Part shown: positions 13,452 to 61,870 of the stretch, piece by piece
How the letters are laid out: every line of letters starts with the position of its first letter
How positions within the stretch are numbered: position 1 is the stretch's first letter
NCBI GenBank assembly: GCA_951406725.2
Contig: OX597816.1
Span: 80,724,001 to 80,788,000, forward strand
DNA from: Octopus vulgaris
Lineage: Eukaryota
Length of the DNA stretch: 64,000 nucleotides
Direction: 5' to 3'
Notes under the pieces: generated by a model
What the model saw: the letters and a program-made list of their open reading frames with translations, nothing else
The model's database searches: none
What the model was told of the DNA's origin: nothing
Position numbers and translations under genes: made by a program

Positions 13452-13662
13452 ATCCTTTCTACTGAAGACACAAGGCCTGAAATTTGAAGTGAGGGGACGA
13501 GTAGATTACATCGACCCCCAGTGTTTCACTGGTACTTAATTTATCGATCCCGAAAGGATGAAAGGCAAATGTGGACTTCGCCGGAATTTGAACTCAGAAC
13601 GTAGCGACGGGCGAAATGCGGTGAAACATTTTCCCTGGTATGCTAACGATTCAGCTCGCTGC
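13452..13662 (-). mobile_element. SINE family B
   Basis: ggtacttaatttatcgatcccgaaaggatgaaaggcaaa...gaatttgaactcagaacg; (AAT)n on both sides. Confidence 0.9.
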
Positions 13663-13668
13663 TTTAAC

Positions 13669-13728
<60 letters not shown>

Positions 13729-14430
13729 GACGAAACAATAGACCATCTCGTTTCGGGATGTCCTGTGCTGACACCAAACGAATACAAAAATCGCCACGAT
13801 AGGGTAGGACAGTATATACATTGGAAGATATGTAAACACTACAAATCCGACACTCCTGCTAACTGGTATGAACACCATCCTCAGCCAGTTGTTGAAGGTA
13901 AAGATGTCACCATCCTCTGGGATTTTCCAGTCAACACTGACAGAACGATCAAGGCTAATCGACCAGACATAATTGTTAAAGACAGGGAAGAAAATACCTG
14001 CAGACTAATAGAAGTAAGCGTCCCCACTGATAAAAATGTATCTGTCAAGGAATTTGACAAACTTAGTAAATATAAGGACCTGGAAATCGAAATACAGAGG
14101 ATGTGGAATCTTAAAACAAAAACTGTTCCTGTTATTGTAGGTGCCCTAGGTATGATAAAAAAGGGATGTCAGAAACACCTAGACAATATCCCTGGAAAAC
14201 CATGTCTCAAGGAAATCCAAAAGATTGTGCTAACAAGTACTACCCACATCCTTAGAAAAACCCTATCAATGTAAATGTTTGTGTTTGTATTACATGGAGA
14301 TATTTCTCTACTTCCCCTCCCCAAGCTTTCAGCTATATTTCAACAACTCTTAACCTTCACTTGCCCTAGGGCGCTGGGTGTGCCCCGGCAGGTGATTGCA
14401 TCAAACATGCAGATTAAAAGTAAATGATTA
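13729..14430 (+). mobile_element. 5'-truncated R4/Dong-type LINE: open RLE endonuclease frame (13729-14274) plus 3' UTR
   Basis: ETIDHLVSGCPVL..EYKNRHDRV..ILWD..NRPDII..LIEVSVP..KLSKYKDL..VIVGALG gives the end of the CCHC knuckle, RHD and PD-(D/E)xK motifs; begins right after (AAT)n and ends in taataat. Confidence 0.92.
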
Positions 14431-15096: not shown

Positions 15097-16091
15097 GTTT
15101 TTTATTTTTATAGCGTGCTTTCACTTCACTACCGAGCACAGATCTGTGTATGTGCTGTGATTTGTTGGGTATGTGCTGTGATTTGTTGTGATGCTCTGAT
15201 GGTTATTGTATGGAAAGTGTTCTGCGTAGGATGTGTGCAGTGCCTAGTAGTGCAATTTTCTGTATGTTATATGTGTTTGTAAGTCCTGGTGTTTTTGTTA
15301 TGTATTTGTCTGAATATTTTTTTATCATGCCTAATGCACCTACTATGATAGGAATTGTTTCTGTTTTCAGATTCCACATTCTAGTTACCTCTATTTCCAG
15401 GTCTTTGTATTTTGAGAGTTTCTCCATTTCTTTTAGAGACACGTTGTCATCAGCCGGTATTGATACATCAATTAGAAAGCATGTTTTTTCTTCATGATCT
15501 CTGACAACTATATCTGGTCTGTTGGCCTTAATTTCTCTATCTGTGTGTATCGGCATATCCCAGAGTATGGTTGCTTTCTCATTTTCTGTGACTTTTCTGG
15601 TGTGTGCCTATACCATCTTTTTACTGTTGTTATTCCATAATGTTGTCATAGCTTCCAATGTATGTAGGTTCCAACTCTGTCATGTCTGTGAATATATTCC
15701 TTCTTAGCCAAGACTGGGCAGCTAGAGATAATATGATTTATTGTTTCGTGTCCATCTCCACATATTCTGCAGTTACTTGTAATATTTCTTTTCATTACAT
15801 GTTTTTGGTAATTTCTGGTGGGGAGGCTTTGGTCTTGTGCTGCAATTAAAAATCCCTCTGTTACTGCTTTGAGTCCTGAGCTTCTCAACCATTGCTGGGA
15901 TTTTTCTTTGTCTATTTCTTTTGCGTTTAGTTTAGTCCAGTATTTACCATGAAGGGCTTTTCTTGCCATCGTTTTATCATGGTTCGTTGCTGTTCTATTT
16001 TTAGTTTGGATTTCATTTGTTTTATAGCTTTTGTTGTTTCTTCATCTTCTTCTTCTTCTTCATGTTTATTAGGTGGTATGATTTCTTGTTT

Positions 16092-19102: not shown

Positions 19103-19939
19103 CGAAGGGGTGCCCAAAAGTGTTCGGAAACGTTTTCTGTTGGACAAGACAAACCCGTTGTTCTTCAAGCTTCAGTCGCTAGAAGCCACTTGATGCGACT
19201 ATCAGGCATCAGTATGCTAATCAGCGTCGTCGAGTATAGTCCTACTGCCACAGGGTGCGTCTTTGTTTTGCATTGCTTCTCCCTTATCCGTCGATTTTTG
19301 CAATGACTGAAACGAAGGAACAACGTGCTTCCGTGAAATTCGGTTTTCTGCTGTGGAAAACGGCGGCTGCTTCTAACGGTTTACAAGGATGCTGACATGA
19401 ATAAAACACAAGTTTACGAGTGGTTTTCACGCTTTAGGAATGAAGATCACCCTCGTTCAGTACGTCCGTCGACCACTTGAACGAATAAAACAATTGACAA
19501 ACTGGTTGATATGACTGCCGTGTCCTGGAGCTTCTGCCAACGAATTCTGAGCGAGGAATTGCGAATGAAAAGATTTGCAGCAAAATTTATGCCTCGCTTG
19601 CTCACGGAAGATCAAAAGCAGTTACGACTGAATGTGTGTCGTGAACTGAAAGAACAGCTGGAAATTGATACGGACCTCTTTTCGAATGTCATCACTGGTG
19701 ACGAAAGCTGGTGCTACGGAATTTGCAGAAGTGAAAAAGGTGAAGAAAAATACGACGGAGGTGTTAAAAAGCATCACTTTGAAAGAGTTCCAGCACTGCT
19801 TCGAACAGTGGAAATCATGCCTGGACCGATGCATTGCTTCAAATGGAGAATACTTCGAAGGCGATATAAGTGCAAACATGTAAAACTAAGTGAATAAAAT
19901 AATTTTCCAAAATTCCGGTTTCTTTTGGGTACCCCCTAG
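19103..19939 (+). mobile_element. Internally deleted mariner transposon with both TIRs
   Basis: Left cgaaggggtgcccaaaagtgttcggaa, right ttccggtttcttttgggtaccccctag|TA; transposase pieces MTETKEQRASVKF (ATG 19303), KTQVYEWFSRF, AKFMPRLLTEDQK, VITGDESWCY, then jump to C-terminal FQHCFEQWK..CIASNGEYFEG; the catalytic centre is deleted. Confidence 0.92.
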
Positions 19940-36026: not shown

Positions 36027-36337
36027 ATGGGCAATTATGGAGTGAATTTTAAGGCTTATAAAACTAATATTCATCTATCCTTCCTTAATACCGGTTCCCA
36101 TATGTTATTCATATCTACACTCAGTCTGCTTAGGAGGTTGTTGTGTCCTAGCATATGTGTGCTTCTTTTAGTTTTCATATTTTCCTGTGTTCTCTGTCTA
36201 TTATTTTAACATCATCCCACAGGGAGCGGTGGACTCCATTTTTCCATATATGATCAACTATACCCGATTTATCAATATCTCCTCGTGTCATAGCTTTGCG
36301 ATGTTCCTCTACTCTTACTTTTAGGATGTCTGAGAGT

Positions 36338-40200: not shown

Positions 40201-40317
40201 CGAGCACGCACACGCAAACACACACACACATACACACACGTTAATAGTTCATCTTTAATAACTAATCTTTTGTCAAACTTGATACATCACACATTGGGTG
40301 TATCGTTAGTGCATGAA

Positions 40318-40757
40318 TATACGTTTTCATCATAGAAATCTATGGATGGATTAGCGATTTGCTAACATCTATAGATAAAATTAAAACAGACAGCAGTTTA
40401 TAATGTTTTACCAATAAGGAAAACTGTCCGAAATCTGCCGAATTAGAGACAGTCCTTACTGATGAGGCAACGAAATTGCCGAAACTGACGTCGATATAAG
40501 GAATTTTCGAACGATGTTTTCGGACGATTATAATCTCTGTCTAGATATGTATACAATTATATGCTTTGAATACAGCATTAGAGCATTTTAGCTCTCATTT
40601 CTAGCAATGCAGGTGTTTCTTACTACATAGTTACTGTTAGTGATAATTATAGCTTTTCCTTTTTGCTAAAACATAGCAAACTGCTGTCTATTTACATTTT
40701 CTGTATACACATTAATGATCAGCTAAATCGACCATAGATTTTTATGATGAAAACATA
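40318..40757. repeat. Inverted repeat with ~105-bp arms (40318-40425 / 40651-40757) enclosing a hammerhead
   Basis: gttttcatcatagaaatctatgg vs ccatagatttttatgatgaaaac; agacagcagttt vs aaactgctgtct; aaggaaaa vs ttttcctt. Confidence 0.85.
40453..40502 (+). ncRNA. Type I hammerhead ribozyme motif
   Basis: Stem I tcctta(40453-58)/taagga(40497-502), CTGATGA (40459-65), stem II ggcaa/ttgcc with 5-nt loop, GAAA (40481-84); stem III actgacgtcgat is one ag>ga swap away from the palindrome actgacgtcagt. Confidence 0.8.
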
Positions 40758-40950
40758 CAGACAGAATTTCAGACGAGACAACGGGACTTTCTGACAATTT
40801 TCAGAATGTCTGACAACGGGAATTTCAGAAACTGACATCAGTATAAGGAATTCCCGGACAGTGTTTTCGGACGATTATAGTCTCCCTCTGTATAGAATTA
40901 TGCGCATTAGAGCATTTTAGCTCTTATTTCTAGCAATGTAGGTGTTTCTA
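40481..40950 (+). repeat. Direct repeat ~130 bp (40481-40621 and 40828-40950)
   Basis: Both contain gaaactgac...tataaggaatt...tgttttcggacgattata...gcattagagcattttagctct.atttctagcaatg.aggtgtttct. Confidence 0.9.
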
Positions 40951-41109
40951 GCACATTAATCACATTTATTGACAATTATTTGTATGTTTGTGTATGTGTG
41001 TGTTTATATATATATGTGTGTATATATCCATATATATATATATATATACGTGTGTGTATATATAAATATATATATGAGTGGGTATGTGTGTATATATATA
41101 CTCATGTAC

Positions 41110-61334: not shown

Positions 61335-61870
61335 TAAGAAACTATACCAATGCTTCGGCCAGTGTACAAATGATAGGCTCGCTGGAACTAATAATGAAAC
61401 GACGCTATTATTCACAAATTCATGGATATATTAAAGAAAAAAAAAAACATAAATTAGTACTGTGCTACTAGGAATCAACGATACCATTTCTATCAAGCAG
61501 TGACTAAGTGATTGGTTCATTGGAAACCAATACCCAAGTGACGTTATTGATTACAAATGCTTGATATATTAAATAAAATATATATATATTAACTCTGTGC
61601 CAGTACTATACAGCTGATGAATCAACTACACCGTTTCCATCATGCAGCGAACAAGTGATTTGTTCCTTTGAATCCAGTAACCAAACGACGTTATTGTTTA
61701 CAATGCATGACACATTAAATAAAATATATATATATTAGTATCTTACTAATAATATACTCGAGATGAATCAACTATACCGTTTCCCCTCAAGCAGTAAAAA
61801 TGTCATTGGCCAGTCGGAATAACGAAACGACGCTGTTGTTCAGAAACGCATGACATTTAAAATAAGGAAC
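61335..61870. repeat. Diverged tandem array, ~3.7 copies of a ~146-bp unit
   Basis: aatcaac at 61473, 61620, 61766; each unit has gacg(c/t)t(a/g)tt and attaaa followed by an A/T tract; weaker first unit from ~61340. Confidence 0.8.

What the first reader, a model, noticed from the sequence alone, without database searches (positions are those of the whole stretch)
40453..40849. Split hammerhead ribozyme: two defective copies that complement each other
Seen: copy 1 has stem I, CUGAUGA, a perfect 5-bp stem II and GAAA, but its own stem III/cleavage side is mismatched (...gtcgATA). Copy 2 (40828-40849) lacks CUGAUGA and stem II but keeps gacatcag-TA-taagga. Pairing copy-1 ACUGACGUC (40484-92) with copy-2 GACAUCAGU (40834-42) gives 8/9 bp of stem III, a canonical GUA site (cut after 40843) and the 6-bp stem I tcctta/taagga. 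Known: minimal type I hammerheads with palindromic stem III occur in tandem in Penelope-like elements and retrozymes and can cleave as dimers. Inference: a transcript across this locus could self-cleave once through a ~350-nt long-range fold.
Basis: partly seen in the sequence, partly recalled or inferred. Interest (0 to 1): 0.72.

Follow-up and report, generated by a model that had tools for sequence, protein, structure and literature searches.

The report
Decayed retrozyme pair, chance split hammerhead
Two worn neighbouring copies of an old jumping repeat still carry self-cutting-RNA parts that can be paired across 350 bases, but this is half of a known two-copy fold, turns up about as often as random decay would give, and is predicted to be too unstable to cut, so the site is likely an ordinary genomic fossil.

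Summary
The locus is one insertion of an old, dispersed ~355-nt non-coding repeat. The repeat carries a real type I hammerhead, with compensatory changes in stems I and II and at the stem III centre. It also has Penelope-type insertion geometry, so it is best read as a non-LTR retrozyme family. Both copies are ~12% decayed. The 'split' ribozyme is one half-site of the known double-hammerhead fold. It is not special: 48 of 406 random pairs of decayed copies form such a half-site, and 2 of 8 other real tandem pairs do. In context it is predicted 9-10 kcal/mol above the ensemble (intact monomers 2.6-4.8), and copy 2's cut site is locked in its own hairpin. The rearrangement that destroyed copy 2's core has no second match in the genome. 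Orthologous contigs keep both halves, but no better than neutral drift predicts. Transcription is unshown, and no autonomous partner was found. The scan has already noted young 359-360-nt retrozyme families elsewhere in this genome, with no sequence look-alike of this one. Verdict: ordinary fossil, low interest.

The parts
40314..40425 (-). Inverted arm of the insertion: unit positions ~229-342, the sequence that directly continues copy 2's end at 40979
   Evidence: Profile hit U229-342. In L002, L003 and L004 the matches to 40979 and to 40425 abut with no gap. 104-nt inverted repeat with 40654-40757, 76% complementary.
40426..40766 (+). Copy 1: one nearly full ~345-nt repeat unit, 11.9% from the family majority over the compared span
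40453..40502 (+). Copy-1 type I hammerhead: stem I 5' strand, CUGAUGA, 5-bp stem II and GAAA intact; stem III broken at its second pair; own site after A40496
   Evidence: Sequence; descriptor scans
40767..40812 (+). Rearranged start of copy 2: stem I 5' strand and core lost, with a ~35-nt duplicated remnant (core-like heptamer at 40770-76, stem II remnant 40777-92)
   Evidence: (D7). Only the window itself matches this part among 12 of 12 scored candidates.
40813..40979 (+). Copy 2: unit positions ~42-230, 11.4% from the family majority, ending at one of the family's two preferred end points, next to a microsatellite
40828..40849 (+). Copy-2 cleavage-site half: GAAA, stem III with a CpG-type change in the palindrome centre, GUA site (after 40843), stem I 3' strand
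   Evidence: The CA centre occurs in 3 of 30 exact-pattern hits, beside CG 9 and TG 6.
40817..40856 (+). Local hairpin of copy 2 (40817-26 with 40847-56) that is predicted to sequester the cut site's stem I strand
   Evidence: Predicted occupancy 0.63-0.94 for its outer 8 pairs; also in the MFE folds

Best explanation
The locus is a decayed two-copy insertion of an old ~355-nt hammerhead-bearing repeat, likely a Penelope-mobilised non-LTR retrozyme, and the split ribozyme is likely an unselected leftover half of the known double-hammerhead fold that is predicted to form too rarely to matter. Shown: the dispersed family, the covarying hammerhead, tandem and back-to-back arms with two preferred end points, ~12% decay in both copies, and the chance rate of such half-sites. 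Inferred: when active, the unit RNA was cut by its hammerhead (as a monomer or a dimer) into unit lengths, probably circularised, and was reverse-transcribed by a Penelope-type enzyme priming from both strands of a DNA cut. That would put the 3' ~115 nt on the minus strand and the rest on the plus strand. After insertion, copy 1 lost its stem III pairing and copy 2 lost its core through a local rearrangement, leaving by chance one core and one cut site that match because they descend from the same motif.
For: Family: 76 matches from 40 scored of 1693 candidates, 70-97% identity, long matches 72-84%. Between-locus identity median 79%, maximum 89%, over 77 segments, so no young copies are in this sample. 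Hammerhead: 88.7% of 1297 cells paired, 50 double-sided changes against 21.4 +/- 3.8 shuffled, slid controls 20-39% paired. Geometry: 24 of 80 loci have both orientations; 77 of 114 outer ends fall at unit 220-249 or 270-299; 44 of 76 such ends abut a microsatellite against 514 of 4000 random places. Decay: 10 of 30 rows from loci picked by whole-unit likeness keep a core and 1 of 30 is an intact monomer; 11 of 29 would complete the window's copy-1 core; 48 of 406 random pairs make a half-site with neither copy intact. L002 and L032 show the mirror arrangement; 2 of 8 other tandem pairs, P=0.24. Fold: +9.1 to +10.4 kcal/mol in context against +2.6 to +4.8 for 6 intact monomers. The two hammerhead pieces cofolded do not pair with each other. 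The dimer fold is described in PMC4209133 and PMC7229834.
Against: The half-site is formally complete. Trimmed exactly to 40453-40849 it is only +4.3 kcal/mol, within the range of intact monomers. No intact dimer was in the sample, so the nearest-neighbour penalty for a working long-range half-site is uncalibrated. A C.A opposition at the same stem III position would occur in dimers of the commonest 12-nt variant (CCGA, 19 of 60), so that mismatch may be tolerated. Orthologous contigs list no change in either half. Copies 1 and 2 are not each other's closest relatives (81% alike, rank 24-25 of 76, 2 shared derived states), so 'one RNA template' is not shown. No autonomous partner was found. 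Shuffle control (a) ignores relatedness, and 45 of the 75 rows came from loci picked by the site half or by an exact stem III pattern.
Confidence: 0.8

Rival explanations
1. Fossil with incidental activity: if the plus strand is read through, a small fraction of transcripts would fold into the long-range half-site and cut once at 40843, with no selected role.
For: All catalytic nucleotides, a 6-bp stem I, a 5-bp stem II and 5 uninterrupted stem III pairs are present. The penalty is only +4.3 kcal/mol when flanks are trimmed. Tandem copies are known to cleave as dimers (PMC4209133; PMC7229834).
Against: +9 to +10 kcal/mol with natural flanks. A read-through from upstream includes the inverted arm, which forms a predicted -82 kcal/mol duplex with 40654-40757 and raises the nested-model penalty to +34. 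Copy 1's own stem I strand lies 40 nt away and would form first.
Confidence: 0.13
2. Co-opted discontinuous ribozyme: the host keeps the core of copy 1 and the site of copy 2 because the long-range fold cuts a host transcript, in the manner of the Clec2 discontinuous hammerhead.
For: The locus is present at about 97-98% identity in contigs of three runs with different organism labels, with no listed difference in either functional half.
Against: The chance of no change under neutrality is 0.43, 0.61 and 0.60 for the three informative contigs. Both copies are as decayed as the family median, 12.4%. Equivalent half-sites occur at other loci. No host-gene family was seen in 146 window frames of 55 aa or more (short exons not tested).
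Confidence: 0.03
3. The unit is not a free-standing retrozyme but the pseudo-LTR of an autonomous Penelope-like element whose coding copies were not found; the tandem and inverted copies are its truncated insertions. This concerns the family's nature only, not the split.
For: Pseudo-LTRs carry type I hammerheads and form partial tandems with inverted truncated copies (PMC4209133; 10.1101/2021.04.23.441226). Two family loci lie beside Penelope-like coding fragments: L016 and L015.
Against: 0 of 25 other loci of the L016 coding family carry the unit, and that family has a different hammerhead. 0 of 29 other loci of the L015 coding family carry it within 1.5 kb, and 0 of 20 of these when widened to 9.5 kb. 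Units follow each other head to tail at ~355-nt period with no coding sequence between them.
Confidence: 0.2
4. The hammerhead words are a chance arrangement in AT-rich DNA.
For: No Rfam match at gathering score. A loose descriptor also fires once on an unrelated spot, 29538.
Against: 30 and 60 exact pattern hits against 2 and 3 for reversed controls, 45 of 49 new loci inside the same unit, and covariation.
Confidence: 0.01

Closest known systems
Metazoan non-LTR retrozymes (Cervera and de la Pena 2020, PMC7229834, passages and section 14 read; Li, Clavereau and Pollet 2026, 10.64898/2026.07.22.740005, parts 1-2 of 5 read)
   Same: Non-coding, AT-rich unit of ~355 nt (mussel 350-390 bp) with one type I hammerhead per unit, found as monomers, partial tandems and dimers.
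   Different: Old and decayed (between-locus identity at most 89% in the sample). This locus fails the 'active retrozyme' criterion of two complete consecutive hammerheads. No circular RNA was tested.
Double (dimeric) hammerhead of newt satellite DNA, ASBVd and Penelope-like elements (PMC4209133, parts 1-2 of 4 read; Forster et al. 1988 seen only as cited in PMC4209133 and PMC6155905)
   Same: The core of one tandem copy uses the cut site of the next through an elongated, palindromic stem III.
   Different: Only one half-site can form. The family's stem III (4-5 bp plus tetraloop) should also allow monomer cleavage, and its commonest 12-nt variant is not palindromic.
Penelope-like element pseudo-LTRs and their insertions (10.1101/2021.04.23.441226 and PMC11167929, passages read)
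   Same: Partial tandems, an inverted truncated arm, two preferred end points, insertion beside microsatellites, no evident target-site duplication.
   Different: No RT/GIY-YIG frame is linked to the unit. The end points are ~55-60 nt apart against the 30-40 bp 'tail' described. The hammerhead is not the minimal form.
Clec2 discontinuous hammerhead of mammals (passage in PMC6155905; Martick et al. 2008 seen only as cited)
   Same: Catalytic core and cut site separated by hundreds of bases in one transcript.
   Different: Clec2 is type III with the insert in helix I, sits in an mRNA 3' UTR and is conserved across mammals. Here it would be type I with the insert in stem III, with no known transcript, no sign of selection and strong competing folds.

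Membership tests
Type I hammerhead ribozyme (family level) | Core CUGANGA, GAAA and UH site in type I order | tested here: met
   Alignment A2, 75 rows; core columns 329 of 346 letters match the majority in unbiased rows
Type I hammerhead ribozyme (family level) | Stems I-III with compensatory changes | tested here: met
   Stem I 4 of 6 and stem II 2 of 5 pairs change on both sides. Stem III proper varies on one side only; its palindrome-centre pair switches C-G/A-U in 18 rows.
Type I hammerhead ribozyme (family level) | Self-cleavage | not testable with these tools
   Needs a cleavage assay
Type I hammerhead ribozyme (this locus, each copy alone) | Complete core plus paired stems in one copy | tested here: not met
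   Copy 1: stem III broken at second pair; copy 2: no core or stem II
Minimal hammerhead of Penelope-like elements (PMC4209133) | Little or no helix III, extra base between positions 9 and 10.1, short helix I | tested here: not met
   4-5 bp stem III with tetraloop, 6-bp stem I, no extra base
Non-LTR retrozyme | Short (150-450 bp) low-GC non-coding unit with one type I hammerhead, in tandem or as dispersed monomers | tested here: met
   355-position profile; head-to-tail copies in L002, L004, L006, L092, L106 and others
Non-LTR retrozyme | At least two consecutive complete hammerheads (active element) | tested here: not met
   Not at this locus, and in none of the 11 same-strand pairs listed. 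Applies to these decayed copies, not to the ancestral family.
Non-LTR retrozyme | Expressed as linear and circular unit-length RNA | tested here: inconclusive
   No RNA holder listed; only contigs could be laid
Autonomous Penelope-like element | RT plus GIY-YIG frame flanked by the repeat | tested here: not met
   No linkage for two coding families tested; tblastn of four coding pieces from one family over 80 family loci hit only L016 and L015. Other coding families were not tested.
Penelope-type insertion | Partial tandems, inverted arm, fixed end points, microsatellite targets | tested here: met
Co-opted discontinuous hammerhead (Clec2-like) | Both halves conserved beyond neutral expectation | tested here: inconclusive
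   No listed change in either half, but expected by chance with P 0.43, 0.61, 0.60
Co-opted discontinuous hammerhead (Clec2-like) | Lies in a host transcript and folds stably into the active form | tested here: not met
   Predicted +9 to +10 kcal/mol in context; transcript not shown. Prediction only.

The most novel reading that the evidence does not exclude
Two dead retrozyme copies have assembled by accident a working discontinuous type I hammerhead with a ~340-nt insert in stem III, kept unchanged in related animals, that cuts a host transcript once at 40843: a natural case of a new ribozyme born by complementation between decayed transposon copies.
Probability: 0.04. Interest if true: 0.6.

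Novelty: new member of a known kind. Interest (0 to 1): 0.2.

Why it matters
As it stands it matters little: it is one fossil insertion of one more hammerhead retrozyme family in a genome where the scan has noted several. The family has modest use as a test set. Its stem III centre switched among palindromic forms (AT, CG, CCGG, ACGT) and one large non-palindromic form (CCGA), which lets monomer versus dimer cleavage be tested on natural variants. If the split form did cleave in vivo, it would show that decayed retroelement copies can seed discontinuous ribozymes in host transcripts, and that descriptor scans limited to contiguous motifs undercount them.

Tried and rejected
Rfam at gathering score: nothing; at E<=10 only sub-threshold hammerhead hits and microsatellite noise. 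A type III reading of copy 1 suggested by the Hammerhead_3 hit was rejected by inspection, because no stem I can form between 40454 and 40459. An asymmetric 'core plus coreless' subfamily was rejected: the rearranged 40745-40810 part matches only the window. Autonomous partner: L016-L021 are one segmental duplication of at least 19 kb beside a Penelope-like frame whose other copies lack the unit. L015 abuts a second decayed Penelope-like frame, whose other copies also lack it. Expression: no RNA holder listed. One guessed-RNA run holds family pieces but does not cover copy 2's unique part, and another laid nothing; neither is evidence either way. Host gene: 146 frames scanned, only a retrotransposon zf-RVT hit above cut-off. 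The copy-2 hairpin line used a register off by one and is void; one search replaces it. Rows dropped before counts: duplicate loci and four of five segmental-duplicate copies (84 loci kept, 80 with the unit); L090 (duplicate of L089) from the alignment; L007 (overlapping hits across an inversion) and L105 (45-nt fragment) from the 11 tandem pairs, so 3 of 9 rather than 3 of 11. One further cross-pairing in L002 (5-bp/4-bp, partner outside the unit) is treated as chance. Literature searches listed no title or abstract on complementation between decayed copies or on this family; subscription journals are not covered and supplements were not opened, so absence from print is not established.

Full report
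Observation. Copy 1 (40453-40502) has the stem I 5' strand, CUGAUGA, a 5-bp stem II and GAAA, but its stem III fails at the second pair. Copy 2 (40828-40849) has GAAA, a near-palindromic stem III, a GUA site and the stem I 3' strand. Across copies, 8 of 9 stem III pairs and 6 stem I pairs can be drawn. Rfam finds nothing at gathering score and only a 26-bit Hammerhead_3 match on copy 1. Copy 2's core is destroyed rather than cleanly absent: a broken stem II remnant lies at 40812-27 and a duplicated remnant 35 nt upstream.

The family. The window lies in a 2.8-Gb animal genome (earlier scan notes call it cephalopod, not checked). A 581-nt query gave 1693 first-look candidates and 76 matches from 40 scored, with long matches at 72-84% identity. 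A profile built from natural copies has 355 positions. Over 77 segments, identity between loci has median 79% and maximum 89%; divergence from the column majority has median 12.4%, and is 11.9% for copy 1 and 11.4% for copy 2. An exact 27-place hammerhead pattern has only 5 hits, so no young high-copy class with that motif exists. The scan has noted young 359-360-nt and 485-495-nt retrozyme families elsewhere in this genome; the sequence look-up found no look-alike of this unit.

The hammerhead is real at family level. In 75 aligned copies 88.7% of cells pair, with 50 double-sided changes against 21.4 shuffled, and 20-39% pairing when partners are slid. Stem I switches U-A/C-G and stem II A-U/U-A. 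The shuffle ignores relatedness, and 45 rows came from loci picked by the site half. Among 30 exact hits of the 10-nt stem III the centre is CG 9, AT 8, TG 6, CA 3, other 4 (counted by eye); CA and TG are the expected CpG decay products of CG (established knowledge), and copy 2 is CA. Among 60 hits of the 12-nt form: CCGA 19, CCGG 10, ACGT 4, two other palindromes, 25 others (counted by eye). Several palindromic centres point to dimer formation. The large non-palindromic CCGA class and the 4-5 bp stem point to monomer competence as well. This is not the minimal form defined in PMC4209133.

Insertion geometry. The locus is a minus-strand arm (unit 229-342, 40425 to 40314) back to back with a plus-strand arm (unit 1-345, a rearranged stretch, unit 42-230; 40426-40979). 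The plus arm's end and the minus arm's start are adjacent positions of the unit, as they abut in L002, L003 and L004. This fits priming from both strands of a DNA cut (inference); a later inversion is not excluded. 24 of 80 family loci have both orientations, and 77 of 114 outer ends fall at unit 220-249 or 270-299. 44 of 76 such ends abut microsatellites, against 514 of 4000 random places. These are Penelope-type traits (passages in 10.1101/2021.04.23.441226; PMC11167929); the two-fixed-points test was prompted by note e1-8672319. The window's minus arm ends at 342, not at a preferred point, which is unexplained. Copies 1 and 2 are 81% alike and rank 24-25 of 76 for each other, so a single template RNA is not shown. 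No autonomous partner was found: two Penelope-like coding families sit beside one family locus each, but their other copies lack the unit (0 of 25; 0 of 29 within 1.5 kb; 0 of 20 of those within 9.5 kb).

Is the split more than chance? The drawn fold is one of the two catalytic centres of the double hammerhead described for tandem copies (PMC4209133; PMC7229834; PMC6155905). Among 30 rows from loci picked by whole-unit likeness, 10 keep a core and 1 is an intact monomer. 11 of the other 29 have a site half that would complete the window's copy-1 core. 48 of 406 random pairs form a half-site with neither copy intact, 48 of 812 in a fixed direction. Among real same-strand pairs (11 listed, 2 dropped), L002 and L032 show the mirror arrangement: 2 of 8 besides the window, P=0.24, or 3 of 9 with it, P=0.08. 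Three of those eight came from loci picked for an intact site half. The rearrangement at the head of copy 2 matches nothing else in the genome, so there is no sign that a core-plus-coreless element replicated.

Would it fold? With natural flanks the constrained ensemble lies 9.1-10.4 kcal/mol above the free ensemble, and 34.3 when the upstream inverted arm is included, since that arm would pair with 40654-40757 (nested model only). Six intact monomers from other loci score 2.6-4.8, and the L002 and L032 half-sites 7.3-18.0. Copy 2's site is held in a local hairpin with predicted occupancy 0.63-0.94, and the two hammerhead pieces cofolded stay apart. Against this: trimmed to 40453-40849 the penalty is only 4.3, no intact dimer was available for calibration, and the C.A mismatch of the split stem III is at the position where CCGA-type dimers would also mismatch.

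Conservation and expression. Contigs from three runs with different organism labels cover the locus at about 97-98% identity, two of them spanning the inversion junction. No difference is listed in either functional half, and copy 1's defect is kept; for X3, changes in copy 1 could be hidden under the 1% listing limit. With 4 of 193, 9 of 296 and 9 of 285 changes, the chance of sparing the functional bases is 0.43, 0.61 and 0.60, so the data neither show nor exclude selection. One of these runs may be the source organism. Expression could not be judged. No host-gene family was seen in 146 frames.

Verdict. A fossil tandem insertion of an old non-LTR-retrozyme-like family (unit size as in mussel, PMC7229834 section 14; it fails the two-complete-hammerheads criterion of 10.64898/2026.07.22.740005). 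The split hammerhead is a known fold left by decay at about chance frequency and is predicted to be rarely formed. Confidence 0.8; incidental cleavage 0.13; co-option 0.03-0.04. New member of a known kind; interest 0.2.

Noticed in passing
G000,-43 hits (e.g. L113, L118, L126): The stem III centre of this family has palindromic classes (AT, CG, CCGG, ACGT) and one large non-palindromic class (CCGA, 19 of 60), which in the aligned rows often goes with compensatory stem I and stem II changes; a natural series for monomer versus dimer cleavage.
   Followed up: partly
L015:500-1480 (minus strand): Tandem units run directly into a decayed Penelope-like RT fragment whose first ~305 nt are inverted; either one element inserted at the other's edge or a template switch. 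Other copies of that RT family lack the unit.
   Followed up: partly
L016-L019, L021: Five near-identical copies (95-100%) of a segment on contigs C31, C7 and C6; two were compared over at least 19 kb. Each holds a decayed unit beside a Penelope-like RT/endonuclease fragment.
   Followed up: partly
L057, L059, L062, L068, L070, L072, L077: An abundant Penelope-like coding family (3316 candidates) carries a minimal hammerhead of the PMC4209133 kind near its coding sequence: extra base after the core, long stem II, 2-nt stem III.
   Followed up: no
window 36074-36249 (minus strand): Fragment of that family's endonuclease C-terminal region, 68-79% identical.
   Followed up: no
window 13540-14274 (+), 15203-16041 (-), 19481-19897 (+): Fragments that look like non-LTR retrotransposon C-terminal regions (zf-RVT hit at 15649-16041) and a mariner-like transposase (recalled resemblance, no Pfam hit).
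   Followed up: no
window 61472-61794: 2.2 copies of a 147-nt tandem repeat.
   Followed up: no
L025:1475-1977 and L010:1320-1579: In L025 the inversion junction falls inside the hammerhead itself; in L010 the palindromic hammerhead region also aligns on the opposite strand.
   Followed up: no
window 29538: A loose hammerhead descriptor fires on an unrelated stretch; treated as chance.
   Followed up: no
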